Origin: an uncultured delta proteobacterium
GTDB lineage: Bacteria > Desulfobacterota > Syntrophorhabdia > Syntrophorhabdales > WCHB1-27
Assembly (NCBI GenBank): GCA_963717985.1
Contig: CAVQYC010000007.1
Span: 101,033-165,032, forward strand
Reading direction: 5' to 3'
Length of the DNA: 64,000 nt
The notes under the pieces were generated by a model. The model was given only the letters and a program-made list of their open reading frames with translations, did not search any database and had not been told where the DNA came from. Of this stretch, positions 15,011 to 33,741 are shown piece by piece (within the stretch, counting starts at the first letter, position 1; each line of letters begins with the position of its first letter). The position numbers were made by a program, and so were the translations under genes.

Positions 15011-15064
15011 GTGTGGGTCCGTATCCTTGGGTGTCGGCTAAACGCCTGTGAGAATAGCACTTCT

Positions 15065-16768: not shown

Positions 16769-17316
16769 CCCCCGCCTCCGTCGGGTGTGTCTCCCGCTTT
16801 TGCGGCCCCGATCCGGTCTGCCGGGATCCGCCCGTAGAGGTCGATTTTCTGCTCATCCCCTATCTGGTGCAGGTACTCCGCCAGGGACCGCTTGAAGCGC
16901 GGATGGATCAAGTTTGGGTCAATCTCAAGGCAGGGAACTATAGCGAACTTCCTTTCGTGCAGCCTCGGGTGGGGGATGATAAGGCCGGGGGCGTCGAGGA
17001 CGAGTTCGTCAAAGAAAAGGATGTCCAAATCGAGCGTGCGGGGCCCGAACCTGACCGCCCTTGTCCTGCCCTGCCCCGTCTCCACTTCCCGGAGGAAAGA
17101 AAGCAACTCCCGGGGGGTGCCCTGCCACGCTATTTTGAGGGCGCCGTTCAAGAAGTCGGCCTGGGCCACAGGGGATACCGGTGAGGTGCGATATAAAGAC
17201 GAGAGGGCGACAAATGCCACCCTCTCGTCGCTGATTACAGCCATCACGCCTTGCAGGCAGTTGTCGAAGGCATCACCAACGTTGGACCCTATGCCGATAT
17301 ACGCGACCCCCGTCAT
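16765..17316 (-). CDS. folK: 2-amino-4-hydroxy-6-hydroxymethyldihydropteridine pyrophosphokinase
   Basis: AYIGIGSNVGD, GPRTLDLDILFF, IPHPRLHER(K)F motifs. Confidence 0.85.
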   Translation of the reverse strand: MTGVAYIGIGSNVGDAFDNCLQGVMAVISDERVAFVALSSLYRTSPVSPVAQADFLNGALKIAWQGTPRELLSFLREVETGQGRTRAVRFGPRTLDLDILFFDELVLDAPGLIIPHPRLHERKFAIVPCLEIDPNLIHPRFKRSLAEYLHQIGDEQKIDLYGRIPADRIGAAKAGDTPDGGGG

Positions 17317-17321
17317 GTGAC

Positions 17322-17513
17322 TTAAGAAGACTTCGGCTTCTCCCGATCGTTCTTCGGGGTCACGTCGATCTCGTCAGGCTCCTTCATCGATTTCTTGAAG
17401 CTCTTTATCCCCTTGCCGATGGCGCCCCCTATCTCGGGGAGCTTGCCGGCGCCGAATATGATCAATACAATAACCATGATCACGATCAGTTCAGGGAAAC
17501 CGAGTCCGAACAT
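17322..17513 (-). CDS. tatA: twin-arginine translocase TatA/E
   Basis: [29 protein letters not shown] is the canonical TatA transmembrane plus hinge sequence. Confidence 0.9.
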
Positions 17514-17789
17514 ATTGTCCCTCCTTGGAATTACATTACACCAGGGAACGAAAAGACGTGCCGGAAGTCTGTGGAGTGAAGGGCAGGTCTCAAGGGCAGT
17601 ATACCATCAAACAGCTTCCTGCGCAATGTCGTGGACGGCCGGACGCTTTTTACGGCAAGCTTTGTCATCGCCTTCGCCCCGCATCCTCATGTACAACAGA
17701 GTACACTCTGGTGCGGGCCGAAGGCGATTTCGCGTTATTCATCAAAAATCGCTCCGGCCGCGAAAGATTGGGAGACCAAGCACCGAAGA

Positions 17790-18368
17790 TTACTGAAACC
17801 GTGTAATGGGGAAGCCAAGCGAGGTCGCGCAGTATAGTACGCGATCCGCTTCGGCGTCTTGATCTTTCGTAAACCCCCGCGAGGAATGGCCTGCGGGAGA
17901 AGGGAATAAAAAAAGACGGCTTTCTATAACGGCCTTTGGATTTTGGGCTCCTTCTTTAATTTTTTCGGCGATAAGCCCTGCAAGTGCTTTATCGTGACCC
18001 GTCCAAATACCAATCTCCGTTATCTTCTCCGTGAGCTTGACGGCAACAACCTTTATCTTTATCTTCTTAGCCAAACCTTCAATTGAACCTCCGTCTCCCT
18101 CTTTGGTTTTTTCAATTCGGACAATTTCAATATGGAGATTCATCAGGGCTGTGACGGACATATCCCATGTGTTTTCAAAAGATGCATCAAGGGCTTCCTG
18201 AGCATCCGCCTTTCTGATTTCTTTCTGCAGCTCTGCTCCCTTAATGGCCAGTTGAGCGCCGCCAATTGCTGCTGTGGTCATGGGAATGGTTAATAAAGTA
18301 CATGCATGCAGGGCCAGCCATACACCGGCAAAAAAGCCAAATAATAAAACCGCCGGGATAATTTTCAT
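17790..18368 (-). CDS. hypothetical exported/membrane-anchored protein
   Basis: N-terminal hydrophobic segment with a Cys (LALHAC) that fits a lipobox poorly. Weak resemblance to DUF3568-type lipoproteins from memory. Downstream of the bactofilin array on the same strand. Confidence 0.4.
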   Translation of the reverse strand: MKIIPAVLLFGFFAGVWLALHACTLLTIPMTTAAIGGAQLAIKGAELQKEIRKADAQEALDASFENTWDMSVTALMNLHIEIVRIEKTKEGDGGSIEGLAKKIKIKVVAVKLTEKITEIGIWTGHDKALAGLIAEKIKEGAQNPKAVIESRLFLFPSPAGHSSRGFTKDQDAEADRVLYCATSLGFPITRFQ

Positions 18369-18623
18369 CGATTAAATACTCCTGATTATCGATGCGGTGG
18401 TGACCCCGGAGAATGTGCGGCATTACGGCCTAGTAGACCCTCCCCGCAGCAAAGGCTTTCGAGAGCGGCCTCCTTGCAGGAGAGGCGGCACCTGGACGCG
18501 CCATCTATTTCCATCAACCGCCTTCGGCAGATCATTCCTTTTCAGGCGCAATAATCGGATATGGTTACCATGGGATTGGGCCGCCGCCTGGCGTACCCGG
18601 CCCTTTTTCACCCTTCTCCTCTC

Positions 18624-18980
18624 TCATTTCTTCATGACGCAGGAGCCATTCATTACCGATCCGCTTTCGATCATGATGGACGGTGTGGTGATGTTTCCCG
18701 TCTGGGTGGCGGTCTCCTTCAGCACCACCTGCTCGCTTGCGGTCACATCGCCGGTGATCTCTCCGTGGGATACGAGCTTCTTCGTGGTGACCTTGGCGGT
18801 GACCTTGGCGGTGGGACCGATGATGAGCAGTCCTTCCGATATGATCTCGCCATCGAGGGTACCCTTTATCATGAGAGAGCTCTTGAAGGTGATCGTGCCG
18901 CTGATATGGAGGTCATCGGCCAGGGTCGTGATGACGTTGGTTTCATCGATGTTTGATGCGCTCAATCCTATATCTGTCAT
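18624..18980 (-). CDS. bactofilin family protein (paralog 5 of 5 in transcription order)
   Basis: DUF583-type beta-helix repeats: ISGTITFKSSLMIKGTLDGEIISEGLLIIGPTAKV...GEITGDVTASEQVVLKETA...GNITT. Nearly identical DNA to 19039..19413. Confidence 0.9.
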   Translation of the reverse strand: MTDIGLSASNIDETNVITTLADDLHISGTITFKSSLMIKGTLDGEIISEGLLIIGPTAKVTAKVTTKKLVSHGEITGDVTASEQVVLKETATQTGNITTPSIMIESGSVMNGSCVMKK

Positions 18981-19038
18981 TTTGGGCTTCTCCTCGTGGT
19001 TTCTCTCGGCAGACCTTCTGCAGTGTCGCCTGCACCTT

Positions 19039-19413
19039 CTACATGGAGGAACCCTCCTTTCCCTTCATCGTGATCGACCCGTTGAAGAGGGAGCCGCTCT
19101 CTACGATGATATTCTGGGTGGTGATGTTTCCCGTCTGGGTGGCGGTCTCCTTCAGCATCACCTGCTCGCTTGCGGTCACATCGCCGGTGATCTCCCCGTG
19201 GGATACGAGCTTCTTCGTGGTGACCTTGGCGTTGACCTTGGCGGTGGGACCGACGATGAGCAGTCCTTCCGATACGATTTCGCCATCGAGGGTACCCTTT
19301 ATCATGAGAGAGCTCTTGAAGGTGATCGTGCCGCTGATATGGAGGTCATCGGCCAGTACAGTGGTGATGCCGGTTTCATCGATGCCTGACACAGGTGGGT
19401 TCATATTTGCCAT
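19039..19413 (-). CDS. bactofilin family protein (paralog 4)
   Basis: Same beta-helix repeat pattern. Shares an exact 38-nt run (19120-19157 = 18687-18724) and a long near-identical stretch with paralog 5. Confidence 0.9.
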   Translation of the reverse strand: MANMNPPVSGIDETGITTVLADDLHISGTITFKSSLMIKGTLDGEIVSEGLLIVGPTAKVNAKVTTKKLVSHGEITGDVTASEQVMLKETATQTGNITTQNIIVESGSLFNGSITMKGKEGSSM

Positions 19414-19506
19414 TTTTTACCTCCTCGTCGTTTGGTGGGTCTAGGTAATAACCAGGTACTGGGACATCAATCCTGCGTCACCTACCGAAAAGACCGCCGG
19501 GAGCGG

Positions 19507-20202
19507 TCAGAACAGCAGTTTCTTGGGTTCTTTTGGCGGCTTCGGTGTCCGTTCGGCACGCGTCCCGTGCCCCTCCTGCCCCCACCCCCGTTCCTCCGCC
19601 TCCTCCGTGTGTTCCTCCGCCTCCTCCTTGGTCGATATTACCTCTTCGGTGGCGGCTATCGCTTCTTCCGCAGGAAGACCGGAGTGCTCTTCAGAAATGG
19701 GGGCTGCCGGCTCCGCCATTTCCTCCTGTATGATGGGGGCTGGCTCCTCCTGAGGTTGAAGCTCCGGATCACGAACTCCCTGCCCTTCCGTCCCGAACTC
19801 CCTGCCCTCCTCACCCGTGTCATGCTGCGGTGATTCGGCAACTGCCTCTCTTTTCATCACGCAGGACCCGTTAAAGATAGAGCCGCTCTCCACGATAATA
19901 TACGGCGTGGTGATGTTTCCCGTCTGGACGGCAGTTCCTTTCAGTACGACCTGCTCGCTCGCGGTCACATCGCCGGTGATCTCTCCGTGGGAAACCAGAT
20001 TCTTCGTCGTGACCGCCGCGTTGACCTTGGCGGTGGGACCGACGATGAGCAGTCCCTCCGATATGATCTCGCCATTGAGGGTACCCTCTATCATGAGAGA
20101 GCTCCTGAACGTCATCGTGCCGGTGATATGGAGGTCCTCGGCCAGGGTCGTCGTGACGTTGGTTTCATCGATGTTCGATGCGCTCAATCCTATATCTGTC
20201 AT
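19507..20202 (-). CDS. bactofilin family protein with long acidic Glu/Pro-rich C-terminal tail (paralog 3)
   Basis: The N-terminal 117 aa form a bactofilin core (N-terminus MTDIGLSASNIDETNV shared with paralog 5). This is followed by a ~114-aa low-complexity E/P/A tail ending KPPKEPKKLLF. Confidence 0.85.
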   Translation of the reverse strand: MTDIGLSASNIDETNVTTTLAEDLHITGTMTFRSSLMIEGTLNGEIISEGLLIVGPTAKVNAAVTTKNLVSHGEITGDVTASEQVVLKGTAVQTGNITTPYIIVESGSIFNGSCVMKREAVAESPQHDTGEEGREFGTEGQGVRDPELQPQEEPAPIIQEEMAEPAAPISEEHSGLPAEEAIAATEEVISTKEEAEEHTEEAEERGWGQEGHGTRAERTPKPPKEPKKLLF

Positions 20203-20260
20203 TTTGAACTTCTCCTCATAGTTTTTCTCAACAGATCTCCCGCAATGCCGCCTGAGCCTC

Positions 20261-20635
20261 TCACCTGGAAAAACCCTCTTTTCCTTTCATCGTGATCGAC
20301 CCGTTGAAGAGGGAACCGCTCTCTACGATGATGTTCTGGGTAGTGATGTTCCCCATTTGGGTGGCGGTCTTTTTGAGTACCACCTGTTCGCTTGCGGTCA
20401 CATCTCCCTGGATCTCCCCGTGGGAAATAAGTCTCTTGGTCACAATCGTGGCGTTGATCTTTGCCGTGGGACCGACCACCAGCAGCCCTTCCGAGGTAAT
20501 CTCTCCTTCAAGAGACCCCTTTATCATGAGAGAAGTCTCGAACCTGAGACTGCCTTTGATGTGTAAGTCTTCGGCGATTACCGTGGTCACATTCTCTTCG
20601 GTGTACTCCGTGGTAGGGGGGACGATAGTTGCCAC
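20261..20635 (-). CDS. bactofilin family protein (paralog 2)
   Basis: Bactofilin core. The C-terminus NIIVESGSLFNGSITMKGKEG is shared with paralog 4. Confidence 0.9.
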   Translation of the reverse strand: MATIVPPTTEYTEENVTTVIAEDLHIKGSLRFETSLMIKGSLEGEITSEGLLVVGPTAKINATIVTKRLISHGEIQGDVTASEQVVLKKTATQMGNITTQNIIVESGSLFNGSITMKGKEGFSR

Positions 20636-20718
20636 TTTCTCCTCCTTGCTGTTAGTCTTTTTTTGTTTGCCTTCTTCTGAGCATCCTCGTCCTGCTTCTT
20701 CGACAATCTATCAAGGGA

Positions 20719-21150
20719 TCAGGGCTCATCGAAGCTGCCCGATTCCGCGGTAGTGCCCAGACTTGGTTTTCCACCTTTTTGGAAGGACAGCACCTCTCTG
20801 CTGTCCAATTCCGCTAGCCGTCGCATGTAGGAATGACCGTCAAAGCACGCACCTTCGGATATGCTCAGTTTGGTGGTGTAGATGTCGCCCGCGACAATTC
20901 CTTTAGACCCGATCTCCACGCTTTCGCTCGCCCTTATGCTGCCTTCCAGCTTGCCCGCCACCATCGTCCCTCTCGAGACCGCATCACCCTTCATACATCC
21001 CGTCTCTCCGACGATGAGCCAGTCTGCCGCGATGTTTCCTTCCACGTTTCCATCGATTCTTGCAATTCCCGGCGTAGACAGGTTTCCCGTGACGCTGGAC
21101 TCGGGACCGATGATGATTTCCAGAGATTGTTGCCGCTTCCTGAATATCAC
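20719..21150 (-). CDS. bactofilin family protein (divergent paralog 1)
   Basis: Divergent DUF583 core (GNLSTPGIARIDGNVEGNI...GDAVSRGTMVAGKLEGSI...GDIYTTKLSISEGACFDG). ATGA overlap with the M23 gene. Confidence 0.85.
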   Translation of the reverse strand: MIFRKRQQSLEIIIGPESSVTGNLSTPGIARIDGNVEGNIAADWLIVGETGCMKGDAVSRGTMVAGKLEGSIRASESVEIGSKGIVAGDIYTTKLSISEGACFDGHSYMRRLAELDSREVLSFQKGGKPSLGTTAESGSFDEP

Positions 21151-21983
21151 GACATATCCCCCAGAAAAGCTGCCGGATTCACGCGTTTTCTATCCTTCCA
21201 CACCTCGTAGTGCACGTGGGGTCCGGTGGAGTCGCCCGTGGAGCCCGAGAGGGAGATCTTCTGCCCCCTTTGGACCCGCTCTCCCAGTTTGACATAGTTC
21301 GTCTTGTTATGGGCGTAAACCGTGGTGAAGCCGTGTCCGTGCTCAAGCACGACGATGTAGCCGCTGTCGTCATGCCAGTTTGAAAAACTGACTATGCCGT
21401 CCGCGGTTGCCCTCACCACCGATCCGATGGGGGTCCGTATGTCGATGCCCTCATGAAAGGCTGACTCGCTGGTTATGGGATGTACCCGCCACCCGAAGGG
21501 CGAACTCACTTGCCCCTTCACGGGCCAGCCCGTCGGCGTCGACCGGTAGAGACTTTTTTGTTCGTTCAGATATTCTCTGATCTCTGAAACCGATTGGATC
21601 GTCTCGTCAACCTGTCTCCTCAACAAATTCTCGTCCGGGGCACCCAAATTGGGCATCTCCGGTATTTCCAGGATCTTCTTCTTCGAGTTGAAAGAGACGA
21701 GCCTGGCAAACTCCGATTCGGTCTTCCGAAGAGAGAAGATGACCTCCTTCAATTCCATGAGCTGGGACGAAACATGGCGGACCTTCTTCCGCATGCCATA
21801 GTACTCGGCGGTCCTGACACCCGTGGACAGAATGTACGTCCCTCCCACGACAGACAAAAGGAGACAACAAAAAAGCCCTATCACAGGAACCCTTATCCTC
21901 AGGGGCTTCACTTTGGAATGGGGGACAATCATGATGGTAACGGAAGTAAAGCTTTGTTTCAGAAAATGCTTTAGCTCGCCCAC
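21147..21983 (-). CDS. M23 (LytM-type) peptidoglycan endopeptidase, membrane-anchored
   Basis: N-terminal transmembrane segment and a coiled region. M23 motifs HEGIDI (HxxxD) and GPHVHYEV (HxH). Confidence 0.9.
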   Translation of the reverse strand: MGELKHFLKQSFTSVTIMIVPHSKVKPLRIRVPVIGLFCCLLLSVVGGTYILSTGVRTAEYYGMRKKVRHVSSQLMELKEVIFSLRKTESEFARLVSFNSKKKILEIPEMPNLGAPDENLLRRQVDETIQSVSEIREYLNEQKSLYRSTPTGWPVKGQVSSPFGWRVHPITSESAFHEGIDIRTPIGSVVRATADGIVSFSNWHDDSGYIVVLEHGHGFTTVYAHNKTNYVKLGERVQRGQKISLSGSTGDSTGPHVHYEVWKDRKRVNPAAFLGDMS

Positions 21984-22223
21984 CTATCTCACTCTCTCCG
22001 CCGGAGACTCTTTACGTTCTGCGTCATGCTCTTCTTTCTTATCACAAACTGGGTATACTTTCCAACAAATATCTATCCGCGCCCCTAAACTTTTATCCTT
22101 TTCAATCCGTAATAGGTGGGGTCGCAATTTGAGTCCGAGCCGGCGCCGAATCAAGTCGCAGAGAGAGGTTCTGATTTCACTGTGTCGGGGAACCGGAGGC
22201 TTCTTACTATTTCAAAAAAACGA

Positions 22224-22252
22224 TTGACCATGGAACTGTCCGGTGATATAAC
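22224..22252 (+). promoter_or_regulatory. sigma70-type promoter of the riboswitch-cbiM operon
   Basis: TTGACC (22224-22229), 17-nt spacer, TATAAC (22247-22252), about 10 nt upstream of the riboswitch. Confidence 0.45.
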
Positions 22253-22259
22253 AAAAATA

Positions 22260-22430
22260 CTTCGGGTGCCAAAAGGCGTAATAGGGAATCCCGTGAGGAC
22301 CGCAAGGGGTCCAAGTCGGGAGCGGTCCCGCCGCTGTAACCGGGATGAAGGCCACCATAGCCACTGAACGTTGATTCGGGAAGGCTGGTGAGTAGGACGA
22401 ACCGGGAGCCAGAAGACCTGCCCGAGGGTC
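22260..22430 (+). promoter_or_regulatory. cobalamin (B12) riboswitch aptamer
   Basis: Conserved elements read directly: GGTGCC..AATAGGGAA..CCGTGAGG, GTCCCGCCGCTGTAA, GCCACTG, GGGAAGGC, and the B12 box GAGCCAGAAGACCTGCC. Lies upstream of cbiM. Confidence 0.85.
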
Positions 22431-22498
22431 GGTCCGCACTTCATTGGGGTGTGGACGTTTCCCGCGGAGGAAATTGAGGATGAAGTAAATCAGGGTGC

Positions 22499-22537
22499 AA
22501 TCCTCGGGGTGTTTTCCGCTCTGAGGATTTTGTTTTT
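22499..22537 (+). terminator. intrinsic terminator (riboswitch expression platform)
   Basis: Hairpin AATCCTCGGGG...CTCTGAGGATT followed by TTGTTTTT, between the aptamer and cbiM. Confidence 0.55.
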
Positions 22538-22644
22538 CCGGCCCGGCTTCCGCTCCACGGGCCCGGATAGCTGGGCAGAGAAGACGGTCGAAACGGATGT
22601 GTCCCTTGCGAGGTGCGCCTCATCGAGATAAAACAGGAGGGACC

Positions 22645-23418
22645 ATGAACAAGAAAGCGCTTGCCACGACTGCCCTGGCGATGCTCGCTCTTCTCCACGT
22701 GCTCTGCCCGTCCGATGCGCAGGCGATGCATATCACCGAGGGCCTGCTCCCCATAAACTGGGCCGTATGGTGGTTCGTCGTTGCCGCGCCTTTCGTTGCT
22801 TACGGCCTCTATAGACTTAAGAGAATGTCGGCTGTCGATCTTTCCTTCAAGCCCCTTGTCGGGCTCATGGCAGCGGTAGTCTTCATCCTCTCGTGCATGC
22901 CCATACCGGTGCCCACGGCCGGGACGTGCTCACACCCGTGCGGCACGGGGATGTCGGGTATATTGCTGGGCCCGGGCATAAGCGTGCTTGTCGCCTCGGT
23001 CGCGCTCCTGATGCAGGCGCTCTTCCTGGCCCATGGGGGCTTGAGCACCCTGGGCGCCAACATCGTCTCCATGGGTGTCATGGGATCCTTTGCGGGTTAT
23101 CTCACGTTCAAGGCCTTGAGGGGCTTCAAGGTCAACCTGGCCGTATCCGGCTTCGTCGCCGGCCTGCTCGCGGACTGGGCGACCTACTTCGCGACATCCG
23201 TCGAGCTTGCCTCGGGTATCAGAGGAAACTCGCCTTTCATGCCCCTTTTCTGGAAGATCCTTATCGCTTTCACCCCGACGCAGATTCCTCTGGGGATACT
23301 GGAAGGCGCCATTACCGGCGGAGTGATCGCGCTCCTCTATAAGAGGAGACCTGACCTCCTCGTGAAGATGGGCGTGGTAAAACAGACGGGCGGGGACCAA
23401 TCGGCATCCGGAAGGTGA
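22645..23418 (+). CDS. cbiM: CbiM/NikM-type metal (cobalt/nickel) ECF substrate-capture component
   Basis: Signal peptide ending AQA, then MHITEGLLP (the processed Met-His N-terminus characteristic of CbiM/NikM) and multiple transmembrane segments. AGGAGG RBS before the ATG at 22645. Confidence 0.85.
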   Translation: MNKKALATTALAMLALLHVLCPSDAQAMHITEGLLPINWAVWWFVVAAPFVAYGLYRLKRMSAVDLSFKPLVGLMAAVVFILSCMPIPVPTAGTCSHPCGTGMSGILLGPGISVLVASVALLMQALFLAHGGLSTLGANIVSMGVMGSFAGYLTFKALRGFKVNLAVSGFVAGLLADWATYFATSVELASGIRGNSPFMPLFWKILIAFTPTQIPLGILEGAITGGVIALLYKRRPDLLVKMGVVKQTGGDQSASGR

Positions 23419-23421
23419 CGC

Positions 23422-24252
23422 ATGATAGAGATCCGCGACCTGACCAGGACGTACGGCACCGTGCAGGCCGTCGACAGGGTAACGCTGACCATAGAAAAGG
23501 GAGAAGTCTTCGGCCTTCTCGGGCCGAACGGGGCGGGGAAAACGACTCTCATCAAGATGCTGACCCTGCTTTCGCGGCCTGATTCAGGCGCATTCACGGT
23601 GGCAGGCTTTGACGCGTCCCACCCTTCCGAGATCAAGCGGCTCATCGGCGCCATGCCCCAGGAAAATAACCTTGAGCGCGAGCTGACGGCCCGGGAGAAC
23701 CTGCTCATCTACGGGATGCTCCACAATCTCGGGGGGTTGGAGCGCAGAATCGAGGGAACGCTGGAGATGGTGGGGCTACTCGACAGGCGGGACTCGGTCG
23801 TCTCCAACTTCTCCGGGGGTATGCAAAGGCGGCTTCTCCTGGGCAGGGCCCTCATGACGGAGCCGGCGGTCGTTTTTCTCGACGAGCCTTCCATCGGCCT
23901 CGACCCCCAGATCAGGAGGCAGATGTGGGACCTCATACGGAAGGCGCGATTAGACGGGCGCACCGTGGTTATCACCACCCACTACATCGAGGAGGCCGAG
24001 ACCCTCTGCGACCGGGTGGGGGTCCTCTCGAAGGGCAGGCTGATCGCCCTCGACAGCCCGGCGGGCCTGAAAACGAAGGTGGGCGAGTACGTAGTCGAGT
24101 TCGTGAACCAGGAAGGACACCTCATCCAGCATATGTGCCGGACCAGGGCTGAGGCCCAGGACGCGGCAAGCCACATAGAAAATGGTGTCACCATCAGGAG
24201 GTCGAACCTGGAGGACGTTTTCATCAAGCTCACGGGGGAGCGGCTCGAATGA
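23422..24252 (+). CDS. ABC transporter ATP-binding protein (ABC-2/DrrA-like subfamily)
   Basis: Walker A GPNGAGKTT, signature FSGGMQRR, Walker B VVFLDEPSIGLD. Three-nt gap after cbiM. Confidence 0.9.
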   Translation: MIEIRDLTRTYGTVQAVDRVTLTIEKGEVFGLLGPNGAGKTTLIKMLTLLSRPDSGAFTVAGFDASHPSEIKRLIGAMPQENNLERELTARENLLIYGMLHNLGGLERRIEGTLEMVGLLDRRDSVVSNFSGGMQRRLLLGRALMTEPAVVFLDEPSIGLDPQIRRQMWDLIRKARLDGRTVVITTHYIEEAETLCDRVGVLSKGRLIALDSPAGLKTKVGEYVVEFVNQEGHLIQHMCRTRAEAQDAASHIENGVTIRRSNLEDVFIKLTGERLE

Positions 24253-24998
24253 CGCGGCTCACGGAATGGTATCCTATATACTTCAAGGAGATGCTTCTCT
24301 TCAAGCGGAAGCTCTTCAAGCTCGGCTATCTCTTCTCGGCCATGGTTGTCCCCATCATTTATCTCGTGGCTTTCGGTTTCGGCCTCGGCAGGAGCGTCCA
24401 GACGGGTCGCGGCACGTACCTCGACTTCCTGATCCCCGGGCTCGTGGCCATGAGCTCCATGAACAATTCCTATAGCTGGGTCGCGAGTGCCCTCAATCTG
24501 AACAGGCTCTACTTCAAGACCTTCCAGGTTTTCGTGCAGGCGCCCATCAGCCCCTTCTCCATCATGATCGGCGAGGTGCTGGCGGGCATTACCAAGGGAC
24601 TCTTCGCCTCCGTCCTCATCATGGCCGTCGGCTTTGCCGTCTCCACGCACTTCCGGGTGACGCCACTCTTTGTCATCGCCCTTCTTCTCAACTGTTCTCT
24701 CTTCGCGTGCCTTGGCATCGTGACGGGCATGGTCACGAAATCCCACGAGGATACGTCGACCTACTCGAACTTTTTCATCCTGCCCATGGCCTTTTTCAGC
24801 GGCACCTTCTTCCCCGTGGACAGGGCGCCCACGGTCATCAAGTGGATCGTTTATGTCATGCCCCTCACCCATACGAACATTCTGATACGGTCGGCGCACC
24901 TCGACGGGCAAGGCATCGCCTCGCTCGCCGTGCTTCTCGTCTACACGGCGGGCTTCTTCGCGTACGGATCGCATCTCATAAGGAGATACAGTGAGTAG
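24249..24998 (+). CDS. ABC-2 type transporter permease
   Basis: 249 aa, about 6 transmembrane segments, ABC-2 membrane-domain look (YFKEMLLFKRK... N-terminus). ATGA overlap with the ATPase. Confidence 0.85.
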   Translation: MTRLTEWYPIYFKEMLLFKRKLFKLGYLFSAMVVPIIYLVAFGFGLGRSVQTGRGTYLDFLIPGLVAMSSMNNSYSWVASALNLNRLYFKTFQVFVQAPISPFSIMIGEVLAGITKGLFASVLIMAVGFAVSTHFRVTPLFVIALLLNCSLFACLGIVTGMVTKSHEDTSTYSNFFILPMAFFSGTFFPVDRAPTVIKWIVYVMPLTHTNILIRSAHLDGQGIASLAVLLVYTAGFFAYGSHLIRRYSE

Positions 24999-25055
24999 CA
25001 GAACAAGAGGGATTCCGAGAACAGCGAACCTTCGAAGCTCCCGGGTCGGAAATCG

Positions 25056-25084
25056 TTGACTGAAGGACTGCCGAGGTATATAAG
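25056..25084 (+). promoter_or_regulatory. candidate sigma70-type promoter of the usp gene
   Basis: TTGACT (25056-25061), 17-nt spacer, TATAAG (25079-25084). GGGGAGG RBS before the ATG at 25112. Confidence 0.35.
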
Positions 25085-25111
25085 TTAGGAATAAAATAAG
25101 GGGAGGCGGCG

Positions 25112-25570
25112 ATGTTCAGCAAGATACTGGTTCCTATCGACTTTTCGGAATACACGGACGAGATCCTGGAGTATGCGGCGGAAATCGCGAAAAAATTCGG
25201 CTCATCCCTGCACCTGATCCATGTGATCCCCACCATGGATTATTTCACCCCTTACGAATCCTTCATATCCGCTGAAAACGTCGAAGGGGCGCAAAAGGCC
25301 ATCGAGGCCGAAGTCAGGAAGCAAATGGAAGAGACGGCCGGACACCTCACCGGGATTGCCGTGACAAGGGCGGTACGAACAGGGGCCGCCTTCATTGAGA
25401 TCACGGACTACGCCGAATCTGAAGGCATGGATCTCATTGTCATGGGGACCCACGGGAGGGGAGGCATCGAGCACCTGCTCTTAGGCAGCGTCGCGGGGCG
25501 GGTGATCCGCAGAGCGCCCTGTCCGGTGCTCACCATCCGGCCCACAAAGAAGGGCGCCGAGACGCCCTGA
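25112..25570 (+). CDS. universal stress protein (UspA family)
   Basis: ILVPIDFSE ... DLIVMGTHGRGGIEHLLLGSVAGRVIRRAPCPVLTI is the canonical Usp ATP-binding motif. Confidence 0.9.
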   Translation: MFSKILVPIDFSEYTDEILEYAAEIAKKFGSSLHLIHVIPTMDYFTPYESFISAENVEGAQKAIEAEVRKQMEETAGHLTGIAVTRAVRTGAAFIEITDYAESEGMDLIVMGTHGRGGIEHLLLGSVAGRVIRRAPCPVLTIRPTKKGAETP

Positions 25571-25807
25571 CAGGCGCGGGCGTCCTCCTCTCACCCTCTT
25601 GAGGACTCCCTCTCAGCGTCCCTCGGGCCTGGTTTCCGGGCCTTCATCCCCTCTTCCGGAAGGGGAGGGCCCTTGTGCAGCTTACCCCCCTTTTTTTTCT
25701 GGAAAGAGCGGGAAGAAAGCTCCGACGGGGCGAGAATGACTAATGAACCCTGGGAGACAACGTATCCACAGTTCCCCCTGCAGATGAATGCGCCCTACCG
25801 GGCGCAC

Positions 25808-25843
25808 AAAAAAAAGCGGGCGGAGACCTTGGCCTCCGCCCGC
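25808..25843 (-). terminator. intrinsic terminator downstream of the PEP-CTERM gene
   Basis: Perfect 10-bp stem GCGGGCGGAG/CTCCGCCCGC with an 8-nt loop. On the minus strand it is followed by an 8-T run. Confidence 0.6.
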
Positions 25844-25865
25844 AAAATAAAGAAAGTGGTTGGTT

Positions 25866-26456
25866 CTATCCCTTGAGTCTTTTCCTGATGCCCACAAGGC
25901 CAAGGAGGCCGGGGGCAAGAAGCAGTAGTGTCGGGGGAACGGGAACCGGGCTGTAGGTGGCAACGAACCCTACCTTAGTCGGGTCGATGTTCCCCGTGAG
26001 AACGATATTCACAAAGAAGGTGTCACCGGCGACGAGCTGGGCTCCTCCGGGAGCGAAAAACTGCACCTCCGTGGGCGAAACCGAGACCATGGTCCAGAGT
26101 GCACCGGCTGTGGTGTTGCTGAAGCGCGTCGTCAGATAAGAGCCAAACGGGTCATTCCCGGGGGTAGGAGTCAAATCGATCGCCACTCCCGCGGGCACAG
26201 TAAATGCGGTGCCGAGCACGAAGTCGAAATCCGTCGTCGCCGGGCCCGTCCAGGTCAATGTCCCCGCGAGGAGACCCGGGATACCCCACGCTGAAGCCCC
26301 CCCAGGGCCGTTGTTATTCCAGGTCCACGCGTTGCCGTACGTGTCCACTCCTGCAGCGCCAAGGCCCACGAAGCTGACATCGGCCTTTGCAGAGGCGGCG
26401 AAAACCATGATCACCATAGCCAGAACGATCGTTGTAGCCACTAACATTCTTTTCAT
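25866..26456 (-). CDS. PEP-CTERM sorting-domain secreted protein
   Basis: Signal peptide (MKRMLVATTIVLAMVIMVFAASAKA). C-terminal VPVPPTLLLLAPGLLGLVGIRKRLKG is the PEP-CTERM anchor. Start set at the ATG at 26456 with an AAAGGAGAAA RBS. Confidence 0.8.
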   Translation of the reverse strand: MKRMLVATTIVLAMVIMVFAASAKADVSFVGLGAAGVDTYGNAWTWNNNGPGGASAWGIPGLLAGTLTWTGPATTDFDFVLGTAFTVPAGVAIDLTPTPGNDPFGSYLTTRFSNTTAGALWTMVSVSPTEVQFFAPGGAQLVAGDTFFVNIVLTGNIDPTKVGFVATYSPVPVPPTLLLLAPGLLGLVGIRKRLKG

Positions 26457-26962
26457 AAGCTTTCTCCTTTTGATTTTGACTGACGCCGGAACATGAACTG
26501 CCTTTTGAGACTTCCTCACCTCCCTTTGTTTTCACGCTTAAAAGCGTGTTTTTGGCAGCCCGGCCGTCTGTCTGAAGTATTCACGAGTAGCGTATCCGAG
26601 ACCCGCTGGCTTTCCGTCCCACCCTTACGAGTGGTTTGGCTTTTTCAGATATTGCAACAGGTTACCAGAAGGCTGTTACACCCTTGTGAAAGATTTATGA
26701 AATATTCGTTAAGAAACTTCGAGTAGTAATCGTGAATATTGAGAACTTGTGGCTGACGCGCGCTTGCAGGCGCGCTTCGTTATTGGTGTCTTCCCGAATT
26801 CGTGCAACGGCTGATCCAGTCTGTGGGCCGAAGATTATGAGTGGCAATCGGGTGCCAGGCAATTCCTAATATTTCCGCCTTTGTTGGAAGAAGTGAAGAA
26901 CGTCCTCGTCGTCCTCTTCTAGTTTATATATAGCAGACTATATATAGCTATTAATAATTTAG

Positions 26963-26992
26963 TTGACATATTCGTTTACTTTCTGCTATGCT
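26963..26992 (+). promoter_or_regulatory. candidate promoter of the helicase-methylase-ATPase operon
   Basis: TTGACA (26963-26968), 18-nt spacer, TATGCT (26987-26992). Directly preceded by an AT-rich region with two TATATATAGC repeats. Confidence 0.35.
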
Positions 26993-26999
26993 GTTCTGT

Positions 27000-29900
27000 A
27001 TGAACGCAGAAGAAATAAAGACCATCCGTGCGAGACTGGGCTGTTCCCAACAGGAACTGGCCTCCATGCTTGGGGTCTCCTTTGCCACGGTCAACAGATG
27101 GGAGAATGGAAAGGCGAAGCCGCAGAAGGACAGATTAGATAGGATCCGCGCTTTGTTGGAGGAAAAGCTGTCCCCCGATGAGCCACTGCATCCTGTGGAA
27201 AGGCAGATGCAACTCATACCACGGCTTGATTTTGAAGGTGACCCCGAGGCCCTGAAGCTGGTTGTGGATGCCCATCGCCTTCAGAACGGACACCTTTTCA
27301 ACAAGGCATACGGACTTGAGCTTTCTCGCGTGGTCCCGCTGCCGCACCAGCGCATTGCGGTGTACGAGCATATGCTGCCCCAGAACCCTATGCGCTTCTT
27401 CCTCGCCGATGATGCCGGAGCCGGAAAAACCATCATGACCGGCCTTTACATCCGGGAGATGGTCAATCGTGGACGCCTATCCAGGGCCATCGTGTGTTGT
27501 CCCGCCGGTTTGACGTGGAATTGGCAGCGTGAGTTGAGACATTTCTTTGATCTCGACTTTGCGGTCCTTCGCGGGGTGGATTTCGCCAGAGGCAACCCCA
27601 TATCGGCAAACGGGAAATGCTTCGTCATCGTCAGCGTGGACACCGCAGCGACCGACGCTGTCAGAAATTTCCTGACATCGGAAGCAATCAATGCTTTCGA
27701 CCTGGTTGTTTTCGATGAGGCCCACAAGCTCTCATGGAACGACCCAAAAAGGGCGGATAGTAAAACACGCCGCTACCGGCTTGCTGAGACATTAGGCAGT
27801 AAAACAACCCATATGCTCCTCCTCACGGCGACCCCACACATGGGAAAGCCTTTCCCTTATTCGGCCCTATGGCGCCTCCTGGACCCGCACGTCTTTTCCT
27901 CTGAAGATGCCGTCTCGTCTTTATCGAAGGAAAAACAGTCAAAGTACTTTGCCAGACGCCTGAAAGAGGAGATGATCGATTATGAGGGGCGTCCGATTTA
28001 CATGCCCCGTCTCTGCCAGACTATCAGCTTCACACTTACCGAGGCGGAGCAATCCTTTTACAAAGAGACCTCGGAATACCTCCGCTGGAGTTACGAGACC
28101 AATACCACCCTCAACAGAAATGCGGCTGCCATGGTGGTGGCCGTGTTTCAGCGTCGCCTGGCCAGTTCCGTCTATGCGGTGTTGGAGTCGCTCAAACGGC
28201 GCCGCGCGCGAATCCTCCAAAACGCTTCGGATGGCTATGGGGGAGATCAGGCATCGGTTCCCGCTGTGTCTTTGCAGCACGTGATCGACTACTTTGATAA
28301 CAGCACGGCTGACGACAGCGAGCCAGCAGAGGACGGACGTGAAACGGATGAACATGTTGAGACAGCCGCCCTCAGTCTCGTGAAACCCGCAACGCCGGCG
28401 CAACTTCAAAGAGAATTGGAGTATCTCGAAAGGATCATTGAACTTGGCGAATCTGTCAGAGCGTCGCTCCAGGAGGCTAAGTTCTTCAAGCTTCGAGAGC
28501 TCATCGAATCGGCTCAATACCAAAATGAGAAGCTCCTCGTCTTTACAGAGCACCGGGATACCCTGGATTACCTGACACAGAGGTTCGAGGCCCTGGGGTA
28601 CACGGGGCAAATCGCGCACATCCACGGGGGTATGGCCGTGGAGGAGCGGGAGCGGCAGCGCATCTTCTTTATGTCACCGGAAATGCGTCGCTCCCAAGGG
28701 GTGAAAAATCACGATGATCCGAGCGCCAGGATTATGCTGGCTACTGACGCAGCGGGAGAAGGCATCAACCTGCAGTTCGCCTGGATCATGGTCAATTTCG
28801 ACATACCCTGGAATCCGGCCCGCCTGGAGCAGCGTATGGGAAGGCTCCACCGCTTTGGCCAAAGGCACCCGGAAGTTCGTATCTTCAACCTTGTTGCCGA
28901 GAATACGCGCGAAGGCGACGTGCTTGCAACGCTTCTCGAAAAACTGGAAGAGGCAAGAAAGGCCCTTTGCAGTGACAAGGTATTTGACGTCGTGGGCCAA
29001 CTGCTGCGAGACGTGTCACTCCGGGACCTTCTGAGGGATGCCCTTTTTGAGGCACCGCCTTACACCGCACAGAAAAAACTCGATTCGATCTTCGCCACGC
29101 AGAAACTGAGAGCGACTATCGAGGAACAAAGGAAGAATGCCTCTGCCTTTGGAGACGTGGCAAGACGGCTTGGTGAGCTAAACCGCGAGATAGATGCGGA
29201 GCGGTTCACCCGCCTCCTCCCCGCCTATGTTCAAAACTTCGTAGAGAAGGCCGCGCCTCGTCTTGGCGTGCAAATCGAAGGTGATCTGACCGGTGCAGCC
29301 CGCTTCGCTGTGTCGGGAAATGAAGGGCAATGGCTTTACCGGTTGGCAAATCACTTTTCCGGGGGCCTTCCTGATTACTTTTCCGTCCGGAACGATTTCT
29401 TTATAGAAGGAATCGATAGGTCCAGATGCGCCTTTCTTCGCCCAGGGGAGATCATCTTTGACGCCATGTGCAGCGAGACGATCAACCGCTTCCGGGCTGA
29501 TGTCATGAGAGGGGCAGCCTTTTGTGATCCCTTGGCGGAAAGGCCTTATTATCTCTCTGTCTACATCTGCCAGATCGGTGAGATCGAAGCAGGGTTTAAG
29601 GCTCAAAGACAAAAACCGATGAAAACTCTTTCCGACCGATTTCTGATGGGGATACGCTGGGACGAAGGAGGCAACTATGGAGAATGCGCCTTCAACCATT
29701 TGCTGGCCCTCCTCGCGGCCCAGCGCTCTCTCGTGTGGAAGGCGGGCACGCTCCTGGTGAACCCCGAAGAACAGGTCTATAAAGCAGACTCTTTCGCACG
29801 CGCGCTTGCCGACTCAACTGTCCTACAGCAGATACGATCGCGCTTGCGAACAGAAGCCTTTGCCCGGATCGATGATCTCACGAGAGGTTACGACTACTTG

Positions 29901-30512: not shown

Positions 30513-30513
30513 G

Positions 30514-33717: not shown

Positions 33718-33741
33718 AGAGACTGACAGCGAGGTGCGCAC

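What the first reader, a model, noticed from the sequence alone, without database searches (positions are those of the whole stretch)
22224..24998. Cobalamin riboswitch controls cbiM followed by an ABC-2 ATPase/permease pair instead of cbiN-cbiQ-cbiO
**Regulatory elements.** The promoter (TTGACC-17-TATAAC), the B12 aptamer with a clear B12 box and the terminator hairpin are all readable.

**First gene.** It is a typical CbiM/NikM, with signal-peptide cleavage that would expose the Met-His N-terminus.

**The departure from the known system.**
- Known cobalt/nickel ECF systems pair CbiM with CbiN and the energising module CbiQ (T component) and CbiO (EcfA-type ATPase).
- Here the next two genes start 3 nt after cbiM, and the second overlaps the first (ATGA).
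- They are a DrrA/NatA-like ATPase (GPNGAGKTT) and a 6-TM ABC-2 permease. That subfamily is usually associated with export.
- No cbiN or cbiQ is present.

**Possible explanations.** Either an S-component has been captured by a non-ECF energiser, or a B12-repressed operon combines metal capture with an unrelated transport activity.
Basis: partly seen in the sequence, partly recalled or inferred. Interest (0 to 1): 0.55.

Follow-up and report, generated by a model that had tools for sequence, protein, structure and literature searches.

The report
Recombinant B12-riboswitch cbiM / ABC-2 operon
In one uncultured Syntrophorhabdales species, a vitamin-B12 riboswitch controls an operon made fairly recently by recombination, which joined a cobalt-capture gene (cbiM, without its CbiN part) to a two-gene ABC-2 transporter that relatives keep inside a cobalt-chelatase and uptake cluster; the arrangement is real and odd but local, and does not look like a new type of transporter.

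Summary
**Observation confirmed.**
- A cobalamin riboswitch (109 bits) with a conserved promoter and terminator precedes a bona fide cbiM.
- An ABC ATPase starts 3 nt after cbiM, and an ABC-2 permease overlaps the ATPase (ATGA).
- The two proteins classify as DrrA/NodI/ABCA-like and ABC-2 (type V fold), not as CbiO or CbiQ.
- No N, Q or O component lies in the 64-kb window.

**Origin.** The operon is a two-block mosaic.
- Block A (22208-23413) is about 90% identical in DNA to riboswitch-cbiM~cbiN fusion genes of sister Syntrophorhabdales.
- Block B (23405-25010) is about 92% identical to an ABC-2 pair that relatives keep between a btuD-like gene and cobN, in TonB-receptor/BtuFCD/CobN/ChlID clusters.
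- The joint is a roughly 10-nt microhomology. It deletes the CbiN domain and ends cbiM in the out-of-frame tail of btuD.

**Distribution.**
- The arrangement recurs in at least 7 assemblies of one species.
- It is absent from 70 other species that carry the pair.
- It is absent from the 74 informative of 80 metagenome loci that carry close cbiM relatives.

**Selection.** All three genes remain under purifying selection.

**Reading.** This is a lineage-specific operon fusion that put an autonomous ABC-2 transporter, linked to cobalt or corrinoid metabolism, under B12 repression. It is not an S-component captured by a new energiser. Interest is moderate.

The parts
22224..22252 (+). Promoter: TTGACC (22224-22229), 17-nt spacer, TATAAC (22247-22252)
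   Evidence: Read directly from the sequence. The -35 TTGAC and -10 TATAA cores and their spacing are conserved in six homologous leaders whose upstream flanks are unrelated; in L098 the last base of each hexamer differs. The generic scan did not list it because of the C at position 6 of the -10 hexamer. Transcription from it has not been shown.
22247..22439 (+). Cobalamin riboswitch aptamer (RF00174); B12 box at 22407-22422
   Evidence: 109.4 bits, E 1.6e-26, full-length match to the model. B12 box found.
22421..22427 (+). Candidate antiterminator strand: CCCGAGG, in the 3' strand of P1, is the exact complement of CCTCGGG at 22502-22508
   Evidence: Read directly from the sequence. This is an inference and was not tested.
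22499..22539 (+). Intrinsic-terminator-like hairpin (22499-22529) with a U-rich tail; the expression platform
   Evidence: One search reports 13 pairs, 6 of them G-C. The hairpin is conserved in five of the six homologous leaders; L016 has a variant tail, and it forms in the predicted fold.
22635..22641 (+). Ribosome-binding site AGGAGGG, 3 nt upstream of the cbiM ATG
   Evidence: Read directly from the sequence. It is nearly invariant across the homologous leaders; one leader (L017) has AGGAGAG.
22645..23418 (+). cbiM: 257 aa, signal peptide 1-27, mature N-terminus Met28-His29, no CbiN domain
   Evidence: Family scores. The alignment with 345-357-aa CbiM~CbiN fusion relatives shows that the last roughly 100 aa are missing. 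dN/dS is 0.09-0.15.
23405..23413 (+). Left recombination joint: homology to cbiM~N ends at 23413 and homology to the btuD 3' end begins at 23405. The cbiM stop codon (23416-23418) is an out-of-frame reading of the btuD tail.
   Evidence: blastn block boundaries and the three-way junction alignment.
23422..24252 (+). ABC-2-type (DrrA/NodI/ABCA-like) ATPase, 276 aa; Walker A, signature, Walker B and H-loop motifs are intact
   Evidence: It is 91% identical in amino acids to the L017 orthologue. dN/dS on the window branch is 0.19.
24249..24998 (+). ABC-2 permease, 249 aa, overlapping the ATPase gene by ATGA
   Evidence: It is 65-95% identical to orthologues in 80 species of Desulfobacterota, Nitrospirota and Nitrospinota.
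25008..25012 (+). Right recombination joint: homology to the pair-cobN intergenic DNA of relatives ends at about 25010, after the cobN ribosome-binding site AAGAGG. Unrelated DNA and usp (25112-25570) follow.

Best explanation
This is a lineage-specific composite operon. It formed in the ancestor of one Syntrophorhabdales species by illegitimate, microhomology-mediated recombination.

**The two modules**
- Module A is a self-contained unit: promoter, AdoCbl riboswitch and cbiM~cbiN. In sister genomes it encodes a fused or adjacent CbiM+N cobalt-capture unit that has no cbiQ or cbiO next to it.
- Module A was broken in the linker between the M and N parts.
- It was joined to a 1.6-kb cassette holding only the two genes of an ABC-2 (type V) transporter.
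- In relatives this cassette lies between a btuD-like gene, to which it is translationally coupled, and cobN. That position is inside a cluster of TonB-dependent receptor, BtuF, BtuC, BtuD, the pair, CobN, ChlI and ChlD.

**How it works**
- With enough B12, the ligand-bound aptamer sequesters the P1 3' strand, the terminator forms, and transcription stops before cbiM (inferred).
- With too little B12, the P1 3' strand pairs with the 5' arm of the terminator. The three genes are then transcribed together and translated in a coupled way, given the 3-nt gap and the ATGA overlap (inferred).
- The ABC-2 pair acts as an autonomous ATP-driven transporter of the exporter-type fold. It does not energise CbiM.
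- Its substrate is unknown. Its native neighbours suggest a role in cobalt or corrinoid handling.
- The rearrangement has placed that role under B12 repression, alongside what remains of the cobalt-capture function.
- The CbiN-less CbiM is still selectively maintained. Its transport activity, if any, would need an N component supplied in trans.

**Shown:** the parts, their classification, the mosaic origin and joints, the distribution, and purifying selection.

**Inferred:** the regulatory logic, the independence of CbiM and the pair, and the cobalt/corrinoid theme.
For: **Classification**
- Riboswitch.
- cbiM scores above the curated cut-offs.
- ATPase and permease are ABC-2 type, not ECF.

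**Mosaic origin**
- Window 22208-23413 is 90.4-90.6% identical in DNA to the riboswitch-cbiM~N loci L013-L015. It is 88% identical to L017 and 81% to L016.
- Window 23405-25010 is 89.5-92% identical to the pair in L017, L019 and L020 (L018 aligns from 23423). No other part of 15000-32000 matches these loci.
- In the base-by-base joint, cbiM~N homology runs into a CAYCNGRAARGG microhomology with the btuD 3' end. The right joint falls after the cobN ribosome-binding site.
- The closest CbiM relatives (78-91% identical) are about 100 aa longer. Their extra domain is 52-95% identical to the N-position protein or N domain in relatives' cbiM loci, most of which are cbiM-N-Q-O operons. That protein gives a weak, near-full-length CbiN match.

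**Distribution**
- In 80 metagenome loci with CbiM 70-92% identical, 73 have the N component. Six contigs end too soon to tell, and one has an N remnant.
- None of the 80 shows the ABC-2 pair.
- In 70 species with the pair and enough upstream DNA, the upstream gene is btuD-like in 26, nrdJ in 5, znuB-like in 5 and other in 34. It is cbiM in none.
- The pair with 90% identity (P0004) also sits in the BtuFCD-CobN cluster.

**Reality of the arrangement.** It is found in at least 7 independent assemblies, including a short-read contig that crosses both joints.

**Selection**
- cbiM dN/dS is 0.09-0.15, with about 0.15 on the window branch, the same as in fused relatives.
- Among strains that share the joint, cbiM differs at 11 positions: 8 synonymous changes and 3 conservative replacements, with no stop codons.
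- The pair has dN/dS of 0.15-0.19 on the window branch.

**Regulation**
- Among the loci scanned with Rfam, only the window places a riboswitch in front of the pair.
- The promoter and terminator are conserved.
- There is no room for a promoter, and no consensus promoter, between cbiM and the ATPase gene.

**Cobalt/corrinoid theme**
- The neighbouring CobN scores 1660 bits on an NCBIfam cobaltochelatase equivalog, above its cut-off.
- NrdJ scores 700 bits on TIGR02504.
- In L056 the pair is followed by a complete CbiM/NikM-PDGLE-CbiQ-CbiO system.
- In L017 a riboswitch-cbiM unit lies about 5.7 kb from the pair.
Against: - CbiM stays under purifying selection although it lacks the N component. 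A published review reports that component as part of the minimal cobalt-transport unit (PMC7689651). This leaves room for some new partner or role.
- The tight coupling (a 3-nt gap) would also suit a physical complex.
- About half of the pair's orthologues (34 of 70) have no obvious cobalt-related neighbour, so the cobalt/corrinoid theme is not universal.
- Only 64 kb of the genome is visible. I could not check whether cbiN, cbiQ or cbiO exist elsewhere in it.
- For the same reason I could not check whether a second copy of the pair inside a BtuFCD-CobN cluster exists elsewhere.
- One strain assembly (L002) carries a 1-nt insertion in codon 5 of cbiM. This is either a long-read sequencing error or the start of gene decay.
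- The order of the rearrangement steps cannot be reconstructed.
- There are no expression data.
Confidence: 0.62

Rival explanations
1. Regulatory capture with a dead passenger. Only the promoter, riboswitch and translation start of the cbiM module matter. The truncated CbiM, lacking CbiN, is non-functional and persists as a leader ORF for the ABC-2 pair.
For: - The CbiN domain is deleted and the ORF ends in out-of-frame btuD sequence.
- CbiM plus CbiN is reported as the minimal cobalt-transport unit (PMC7689651).
- One strain assembly has a frameshifting insertion at codon 5.
- No N, Q or O component is present in the window.
Against: - dN/dS on the window branch is about 0.15, no higher than in intact fused relatives.
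- Polymorphism that arose after the rearrangement is 8 synonymous changes to 3 conservative replacements, with no stop codons.
- The signal peptide, the Met-His N-terminus and all invariant CbiM columns are kept.
- A second N-less cbiM (L017), truncated at a different base, also shows dN/dS of about 0.09 against the window copy.
Confidence: 0.2
2. Functional capture. CbiM has become the substrate-capture subunit of a new hybrid transporter energised by the ABC-2 ATPase and permease, which replace CbiN, CbiQ and CbiO.
For: - The genes are tightly coupled and share one riboswitch.
- All three are under purifying selection.
- The pair recurs next to metal importers of three different classes: BtuCD-like, ZnuBC-like and ECF.
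Against: - The arrangement is present in one species only. It is absent from 70 other species with the pair and from the 74 informative of 80 loci holding close cbiM relatives.
- The joint is an accidental microhomology junction that reads into out-of-frame btuD sequence.
- The pair is 91-95% identical in protein to copies that work inside BtuFCD-CobN clusters without CbiM. It shows only a slight rise in dN/dS on the window branch (0.15-0.19 against 0.05-0.16 in L017 and L019).
- The permease has an ABC-2 fold and shows no similarity to T components.
- From general knowledge, S components dock on the coupling helices of the T component, and ABC-2 permeases lack these.
Confidence: 0.07
3. Chimeric assembly or misjoin: the cbiM-ABC-2 junction does not exist in any cell.
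For: The two halves have different closest relatives. Many of the source MAGs are long-read assemblies that contain indel errors.
Against: - The same junction is present in 8 contigs from at least 7 samples and assemblies, produced by different pipelines (ENA, NCBI, Logan).
- These include a 2.2-kb short-read contig that covers both joints.
- Strains differing by about 1% also carry it.
Confidence: 0.01

Closest known systems
CbiMNQO group-I ECF cobalt transporter (Salmonella, Rhodobacter capsulatus), often B12-riboswitch controlled
   Same: - The CbiM orthologue scores above the equivalog cut-offs.
- It has the cleaved signal peptide that exposes Met-His.
- A cobalamin riboswitch with a terminator precedes it.
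- Its orthologue in Dissulfurispira thermophila, 72-79% identical, sits in a canonical cbiM-N-Q-O set inside the B12 biosynthesis operon.
   Different: - No CbiN, CbiQ or CbiO is adjacent or anywhere in the window.
- The CbiN domain was deleted by the rearrangement.
- The downstream ATPase and permease belong to a different ABC class.
CbiM+CbiN units acting without CbiQ/CbiO (reported as the minimal cobalt-transport unit, PMC7689651) and the natural CbiM~CbiN fusions found here in Syntrophorhabdales
   Same: - These are the direct source of the left half of the operon, at about 90% DNA identity including the promoter and riboswitch.
- They also lack adjacent cbiQ and cbiO genes.
   Different: - The relatives keep the N part, fused or as a separate gene.
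- In most of the Syntrophorhabdales loci (L013-L015, L098, L178-L180) an OprB-type porin gene follows; L016 has none.
- The window copy has neither.
The orthologous ABC-2 pair inside TonB-receptor/BtuF/BtuC/BtuD/pair/CobN/ChlI/ChlD clusters of Desulfobacterota, Nitrospirota and Nitrospinota (uncharacterised; annotated only as 'ABC transporter' or 'NodJ-like')
   Same: - It is the direct source of the right half of the operon, at about 92% DNA identity.
- Gene sizes, the overlap between the two genes and the sequence motifs are the same.
   Different: - In the window the pair is cut out of that cluster.
- It lies behind a B12 riboswitch and cbiM, and usp follows it.
- None of the native clusters that were scanned has a riboswitch directly in front.
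ABC-2/type V transporters with solved structures (Wzm-Wzt, TarGH, KpsMT, ABCG/ABCA, NosFY)
   Same: - The ATPase is closest to ABCA nucleotide-binding domains and NosF.
- The permease model matches only this fold class.
- NosFY shows that this class can serve metal-cofactor assembly (molecule names; its function is from general knowledge).
   Different: - Sequence identity is at most 21% for the permease.
- The substrate and the direction of transport are unknown.
- The model confidence is only moderate.
Hmu-type haem uptake loci with the CobN-like dechelatase HmuS (Bacteroidota; PMC12583661)
   Same: Like the pair's native cluster, these loci combine a TonB-dependent receptor with a CobN-family protein.
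   Different: - The CobN in the native cluster is closer to true CobN (577 bits) and ChlH (512 bits) than to HmuS (363 bits), and it passes a cobaltochelatase equivalog cut-off.
- I found no ABC-2 pair mentioned for hmu loci.
- This comparison concerns the pair's native context, not the window.

Membership tests
Cobalamin riboswitch (Rfam RF00174) | Covariance-model score above the gathering threshold over the full model | tested here: met
   109.4 bits against 31.5; model positions 1-189
Cobalamin riboswitch (Rfam RF00174) | B12 box and an expression platform that can switch | tested here: met
   - The B12 box is at 22407-22422.
- The terminator at 22499-22529 is conserved in five of the six homologous leaders; L016 has a variant tail.
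- The antiterminator pairing of 22421-22427 with 22502-22508 is seen in the sequence only.
Cobalamin riboswitch (Rfam RF00174) | Ligand binding and ligand-dependent termination | not testable with these tools
   Needs in-line probing or in-vitro transcription with AdoCbl.
CbiM (S component of the cobalt ECF transporter) | Sequence membership above curated cut-offs | tested here: met
   PF01891 192 bits; TIGR00123 198.8 bits (cut-off 184.15); NF006184 268.2 bits (cut-off 180)
CbiM (S component of the cobalt ECF transporter) | Processed N-terminus that begins Met-His (metal ligands) | tested here: met
   The signal-like residues 1-27 end in AQA. M28 and H29 are invariant, and profile position 1 aligns to residue 28. 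Cleavage itself has not been shown.
CbiM (S component of the cobalt ECF transporter) | A partner N component (CbiN), adjacent or fused | tested here: not met
   - The N domain is missing compared with 345-357-aa relatives.
- There is no N-like sequence in the window.
- 73 of 80 related loci have an N component.
Group-I ECF transporter CbiMNQO | T component (CbiQ) encoded alongside the S component | tested here: not met
   - The permease is ABC2_membrane.
- It shows no similarity to a genuine CbiQ (E 0.14).
- Its predicted fold matches only type V permeases.
- No CbiQ hit is found in the window. The rest of the genome was not visible.
Group-I ECF transporter CbiMNQO | EcfA/CbiO-type ATPase | tested here: not met
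   - The best families for the window ATPase are drrA (277 bits) and NodI, with no ECF or CbiO family among the 25 best.
- As a control, a true CbiO scores 223-278 bits on ECF/CbiO models.
- The two proteins are 30% identical.
ABC-2 (type V) ABC transporter | ABC2_membrane permease of about 250 aa with 6 helices, plus a DrrA/NodI/ABCA-like ATPase, encoded as an overlapping pair | tested here: met
   - PF01061 scores 82 bits against a cut-off of 26.9.
- The model has 7 long helices plus a short N-terminal one.
- Fold matches include TarG, KpsM, Wzm, NosY and ABCG.
- ATPase classification.
- The ATGA overlap is seen.
ABC-2 (type V) ABC transporter | Export direction and substrate | not testable with these tools
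   Transport assays are needed.
Orthologous group of the BtuFCD-[ABC-2 pair]-CobN-ChlID cluster | High sequence identity to the pair of that cluster | tested here: met
   The permease is 95% identical and the ATPase 91% identical to L017. The pair DNA is 92% identical to L017 and 76-92% to L018-L023. Identity is 65-95% across 80 species.
Orthologous group of the BtuFCD-[ABC-2 pair]-CobN-ChlID cluster | Position between the btuD-like and cobN genes | tested here: not met
   In the window the pair is flanked by cbiM and usp. No TonB-dependent receptor, BtuF, FecCD, CobN or ChlI hit is found in the window.

The most novel reading that the evidence does not exclude
The conserved ABC-2 pair may be an unrecognised component of cobalt or corrinoid traffic in anaerobic Desulfobacterota and Nitrospirota.
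- For example, it could work together with BtuCD-like importers and a class-I CobN/ChlID chelatase, either recycling or exporting a ligand or intermediate, or handing over the metal.
- On this reading the window is a natural experiment. Selection kept a rearrangement that placed the pair under a B12 riboswitch next to cbiM, which implies that its activity is wanted specifically when B12 is scarce.
- A stronger form of the idea is that the N-less CbiM now cooperates physically with the pair.
Probability: 0.3. Interest if true: 0.65.

Novelty: new variant of a known kind. Interest (0 to 1): 0.4.

Why it matters
**For the finding itself.** An eye-catching 'wrong partner' operon turns out to be a datable operon fusion, with both recombination joints readable to the base. 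It is not a new transporter architecture. That guards against annotating a hybrid 'ECF/ABC-2' cobalt importer.

**More broadly, three leads emerge.**
1. An uncharacterised ABC-2 pair is unusually conserved: 65-95% amino-acid identity across three phyla.
   - It is translationally coupled to btuD-like importer genes.
   - It is followed by a CobN/ChlID chelatase in about 40% of species.
   - In other species it is tied to nrdJ, znu-like genes or ECF Ni/Co genes.
   - Its capture by a B12 riboswitch is independent, regulation-based evidence for a role in cobalt or corrinoid supply.
2. Syntrophorhabdales carry B12-regulated CbiM+N units, often naturally fused.
   - An OprB porin gene follows them and no Q or O genes are adjacent.
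   - This fits the published observation that CbiM+N can act without the energising module.
3. Two independent N-less cbiM genes are still under purifying selection. This questions whether CbiN is always indispensable in cis.

Tried and rejected
**Literature**
- Searches for cbiM + ABC-2 + riboswitch and for CobN + TonB-dependent + ABC-2 returned nothing.
- A search for NikR + CobN + TonB returned only two reviews, with no description of this cluster.

**Haem-dechelatase (HmuS) analogy for the pair's native cluster**
- I considered a model in which the importer brings in haem, the chelatase strips the iron, and the ABC-2 pair exports the porphyrin.
- I set it aside because the CobN there is closer to CobN and ChlH than to HmuS, and it passes a cobaltochelatase equivalog cut-off.

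**A single inversion of an L017-like arrangement**
- In L017, riboswitch-cbiM is divergent from the TonB receptor-BtuFCD-pair genes. One inversion would create the left joint.
- It would also predict the TonB receptor and btuFCD genes upstream of the riboswitch. The window has the M23 peptidase and bactofilin genes there instead, so the model is rejected as sufficient.

**Identifying the N domain with Pfam**
- There was no hit even at E = 10.
- NCBIfam gives only weak matches to CbiN models spanning most of their length (19 bits against a cut-off of 84).
- 'CbiN' therefore rests on its position in cbiM-N-Q-O operons plus this weak match.

**Looking for the empty site**
- Relatives whose M23 peptidase is 85-87% identical carry prophage, PilZ and DUF2703 genes on that side.
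- The operon therefore lies in a variable region, and no pre-insertion state was recovered.

**Riboswitches in front of native or stand-alone pairs.** None was found, either by a B12-box regular expression or by Rfam on 18 loci.

**Internal promoter.** None was detected by the consensus scan. That scan also missed the real upstream promoter, so this is weak evidence.

**Crude ORF calling.** It was noisy on GC-rich long-read MAGs that carry frameshifts. The censuses therefore rest on tblastn with coverage filters.

Full report
**1. What is there**

The window comes from an uncultured Syntrophorhabdales bacterium. The same DNA is found in ENA, NCBI and Logan assemblies, and the closest named proteins are annotated 'Syntrophorhabdales bacterium'.

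- Rfam places a full-length cobalamin riboswitch at 22247-22439 (+), 109.4 bits, E 1.6e-26. Its B12 box is at 22407-22422.
- The promoter TTGACC-17-TATAAC (22224-22252) is in the sequence.
- A 13-pair hairpin with a T-rich tail follows at 22499-22529.
- Alignment of six homologous leaders shows the -35 and -10 cores, the aptamer and the ribosome-binding site conserved with only single-base variants, and the terminator conserved in five of the six (L016 has a variant tail). The DNA just upstream of the -35 is unrelated in every genome, so the leader is a bounded, conserved unit.
- CCCGAGG (22421-22427, the 3' strand of P1) is the exact complement of CCTCGGG (22502-22508, the 5' arm of the terminator). 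This gives a simple antiterminator; it is my reading of the sequence and is untested.

Three genes follow:
- cbiM, 22645-23418. It passes Pfam and two NCBIfam equivalog cut-offs, and the profiles start at residue 28. That fits cleavage after AQA to expose Met-His.
- An ABC ATPase, 23422-24252, starting 3 nt after the cbiM stop codon.
- An ABC-2 permease, 24249-24998, with an ATGA overlap.

**2. Are the downstream proteins disguised CbiO/CbiQ?** No.

- The best families for the ATPase are drrA (277 bits) and NodI. A genuine CbiO from Dissulfurispira thermophila scores 223-278 bits on ECF/CbiO models and is only 30% identical to the window ATPase.
- The best solved relatives of the ATPase are ABCA1/3/4/7 nucleotide-binding domains and NosF.
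- The permease passes ABC2_membrane and has no similarity to CbiQ.
- An AlphaFold model of the permease (pLDDT 66.7, moderate) matches only type V permeases among the 50 listed PDB hits.
- tblastn with N, Q and O components finds nothing in the 64-kb window.

**3. Where the two halves come from**

*The ABC-2 pair*
- The permease has very close orthologues, 65-95% identical, in 80 species representatives of Desulfobacterota, Nitrospirota and Nitrospinota.
- In Syntrophorhabdus aromaticivorans, Dissulfurispira thermophila and a Nitrospinota MAG, the pair sits in a cluster. Its order is TonB-dependent receptor, BtuF-like, FecCD, BtuD-like ATPase, the pair, CobN, ChlI, ChlD.

*The CbiM*
- The closest CbiM relatives (78-91% identical) are about 100 aa longer.
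- The extra part is a two-helix domain. It is 52-95% identical to the protein or domain in the N position next to cbiM in relatives. That includes the cbiM-N-Q-O set inside the D. thermophila B12 operon.
- The N domain has no Pfam hit. Its best NCBIfam matches are weak matches to CbiN models that span most of their length.
- These fused or adjacent CbiM+N genes in Syntrophorhabdales follow the same riboswitch and have no cbiQ or cbiO next to them. In most of the loci an OprB porin gene follows; L016 has none.

*The mosaic*
- blastn of window 15000-32000 against the Syntrophorhabdales-type loci gives just two blocks.
  - 22208-23413 is 90.4-90.6% identical to L013-L015.
  - 23405-25010 is 89.5-92% identical to the pair in L017, L019 and L020 (L018 aligns from 23423).
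- The base-level alignment shows cbiM~N homology running to GGCA-C-GGAA-G. There, homology to the last 12 nt of btuD begins, at the microhomology CAYCNGRAARGG.
- The cbiM stop codon TGA is an out-of-frame reading of the btuD tail.
- On the right, homology ends about 12 nt after the permease stop codon. That point is just past the ribosome-binding site that serves cobN in relatives.
- So exactly the two-gene cassette is present, between a cbiM that has lost its N domain and unrelated DNA followed by usp.

**4. How widespread is it?**

- The arrangement is real. Eight contigs from at least 7 samples carry it, including a short-read contig across both joints and strains 98.9-99.2% identical.
- It does not recur elsewhere.
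  - Among 70 species loci with enough upstream DNA, the gene directly upstream of the pair is btuD-like in 26, nrdJ in 5, znuB/aztB-like in 5 and other in 34. It is cbiM in none.
  - Among 80 metagenome loci with CbiM 70-92% identical, 73 have the N component right after cbiM. Six contigs end too soon, and one has only an N remnant.
  - None of those 80 loci shows the pair.
  - Close pair variants (90% identical) also sit in the BtuFCD-CobN cluster.
- Two related observations soften 'unrelated'.
  - In L017, the closest species, a riboswitch-cbiM unit lies divergently about 0.7 kb from the start of the cluster and about 5.7 kb from the pair. It also lacks the N domain and is truncated a few bases away from the window's breakpoint.
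  - In L056 the pair is directly followed by a complete CbiM/NikM-PDGLE-CbiQ-CbiO transporter.
- Relatives whose M23 peptidase is 85-87% identical have prophage and other genes where the window has the operon. The operon therefore lies in a variable region.

**5. Is it functional?**

- cbiM dN/dS against relatives is 0.09-0.15.
  - A three-taxon split gives about 0.15 on the window branch, the same as for intact fused relatives.
- Differences that arose after the rearrangement tell the same story. Between strains that share the joint there are 11 changes in cbiM: 8 synonymous and 3 conservative, with no stop codons.
  - By my estimate, if about a quarter of random changes are synonymous, 8 or more of 11 has a probability of about 0.001.
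- The pair has dN/dS of 0.15-0.19 on the window branch, and its ATPase motifs are intact.
- Caveat: one long-read assembly (L002) has a 1-nt insertion in codon 5 of cbiM.

**6. Interpretation**

- The best-supported reading is a lineage-specific operon fusion. It placed an autonomous ABC-2 transporter under the B12 riboswitch of a cobalt-capture gene.
- In its native cluster the pair overlaps the btuD stop codon (ATGA). It is followed by a protein that passes a cobaltochelatase CobN equivalog cut-off.
  - That protein is closer to CobN and ChlH than to the haem dechelatase HmuS.
- In Thermodesulfovibrio the pair overlaps the gene for the AdoCbl-dependent ribonucleotide reductase.
- No riboswitch precedes the native or stand-alone pairs that were scanned.
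- Together this suggests, but does not prove, a role for the pair in cobalt or corrinoid metabolism. B12-repressible expression would make sense for such a role.
- Capture of CbiM by a non-ECF energiser is unlikely for three reasons: the joint is accidental, the distribution is limited to one species, and the pair's sequence is almost unchanged from cluster copies.
- The open puzzle is why an N-less CbiM is maintained. [quoted passage not shown]
  - An N component supplied in trans is possible. A related genome has a second cbiM-N-Q-O operon 3.4 kb from its riboswitch-cbiM unit.

**7. Limits**

- Only 64 kb of the genome could be read.
- The censuses rest on tblastn with coverage filters, run on one genome per species and on JGI metagenomes.
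- Distant, non-orthologous cbiM-ABC-2 pairings would not have been seen.
- There are no expression or transport data.

Noticed in passing
L013-L015, L016, L097-L099, L178-L180: In Syntrophorhabdales, the CbiM and CbiN-like parts are naturally fused into one 345-357-aa protein, or lie adjacent as cbiM plus a 112-aa N gene. They follow a B12 riboswitch. In most of these loci an OprB-type porin gene follows, and no cbiQ or cbiO is adjacent. This looks like a 'solitary' cobalt S-unit with its own outer-membrane channel.
   Followed up: partly
L009/L023, L010, L017-L020, L022, L025, L028 and about 20 more loci: A conserved cluster runs TonB-dependent receptor, BtuF-like, FecCD, BtuD-like, ABC-2 ATPase, ABC-2 permease, CobN, ChlI, ChlD in anaerobic Desulfobacterota, Nitrospirota and Nitrospinota. 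A NikR gene lies next to it in 4 loci, and a B12-binding radical-SAM gene follows it in S. aromaticivorans. No riboswitch lies directly in front. Its function is unknown.
   Followed up: partly
L033, L042, L043, L073, L084: In five Thermodesulfovibrio species the ABC-2 ATPase gene overlaps the 3' end of nrdJ. NrdJ is the AdoCbl-dependent ribonucleotide reductase (TIGR02504, 700 bits).
   Followed up: partly
L059, L064, L085, L087, L091: In five Dissulfurispiraceae/Nitrospiraceae loci the ABC-2 pair follows znuC/znuB-like (ABC-3, AztB/ZnuB-like) metal-importer genes, about 12-30 nt downstream.
   Followed up: partly
L017:2667-3918 (-): The closest sister species also has a riboswitch-controlled cbiM without the N domain. 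It is truncated about 8-10 nt upstream of the window's breakpoint but joined to different DNA. This is a second, apparently independent truncation in the M-N linker, and it lies next to the BtuFCD-pair-CobN cluster.
   Followed up: partly
L002:8397-8440 (window 22645-22690): One strain assembly has a 1-nt insertion in codon 5 of cbiM, which shifts the signal-peptide reading frame. It could be a long-read error or early gene decay.
   Followed up: no
window 26550-26649 (-): A c-di-GMP-I-GGC riboswitch (68.9 bits) lies directly upstream of ORF 25866-26519 (-). That ORF encodes a 217-aa secreted-looking protein with a hydrophobic and basic C-terminal tail.
   Followed up: no
window 18600-21983 (-): Five tandem bactofilin genes are preceded by an M23 peptidase gene. 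The block is conserved in relatives (L185-L187), whereas the DNA on the other side of the M23 gene is variable and holds prophage genes in relatives.
   Followed up: partly
window 26988-37000 (+): A defence-island-like set lies just downstream of the operon: an HTH-SNF2 helicase with a NOV_C domain (1174 aa), a DUF1156 protein (1067 aa) and a DUF499 protein (1110 aa).
   Followed up: no
window 59634-59725 (+) and 62633-62709 (-): tRNA-Sec (71 bits) and a group II intron catalytic domain (68 bits).
   Followed up: no
window 46080-47985 (-): Two adjacent ABC ATPase genes, 37-41% identical to the operon ATPase, probably belong to another ABC-2-type system.
   Followed up: no
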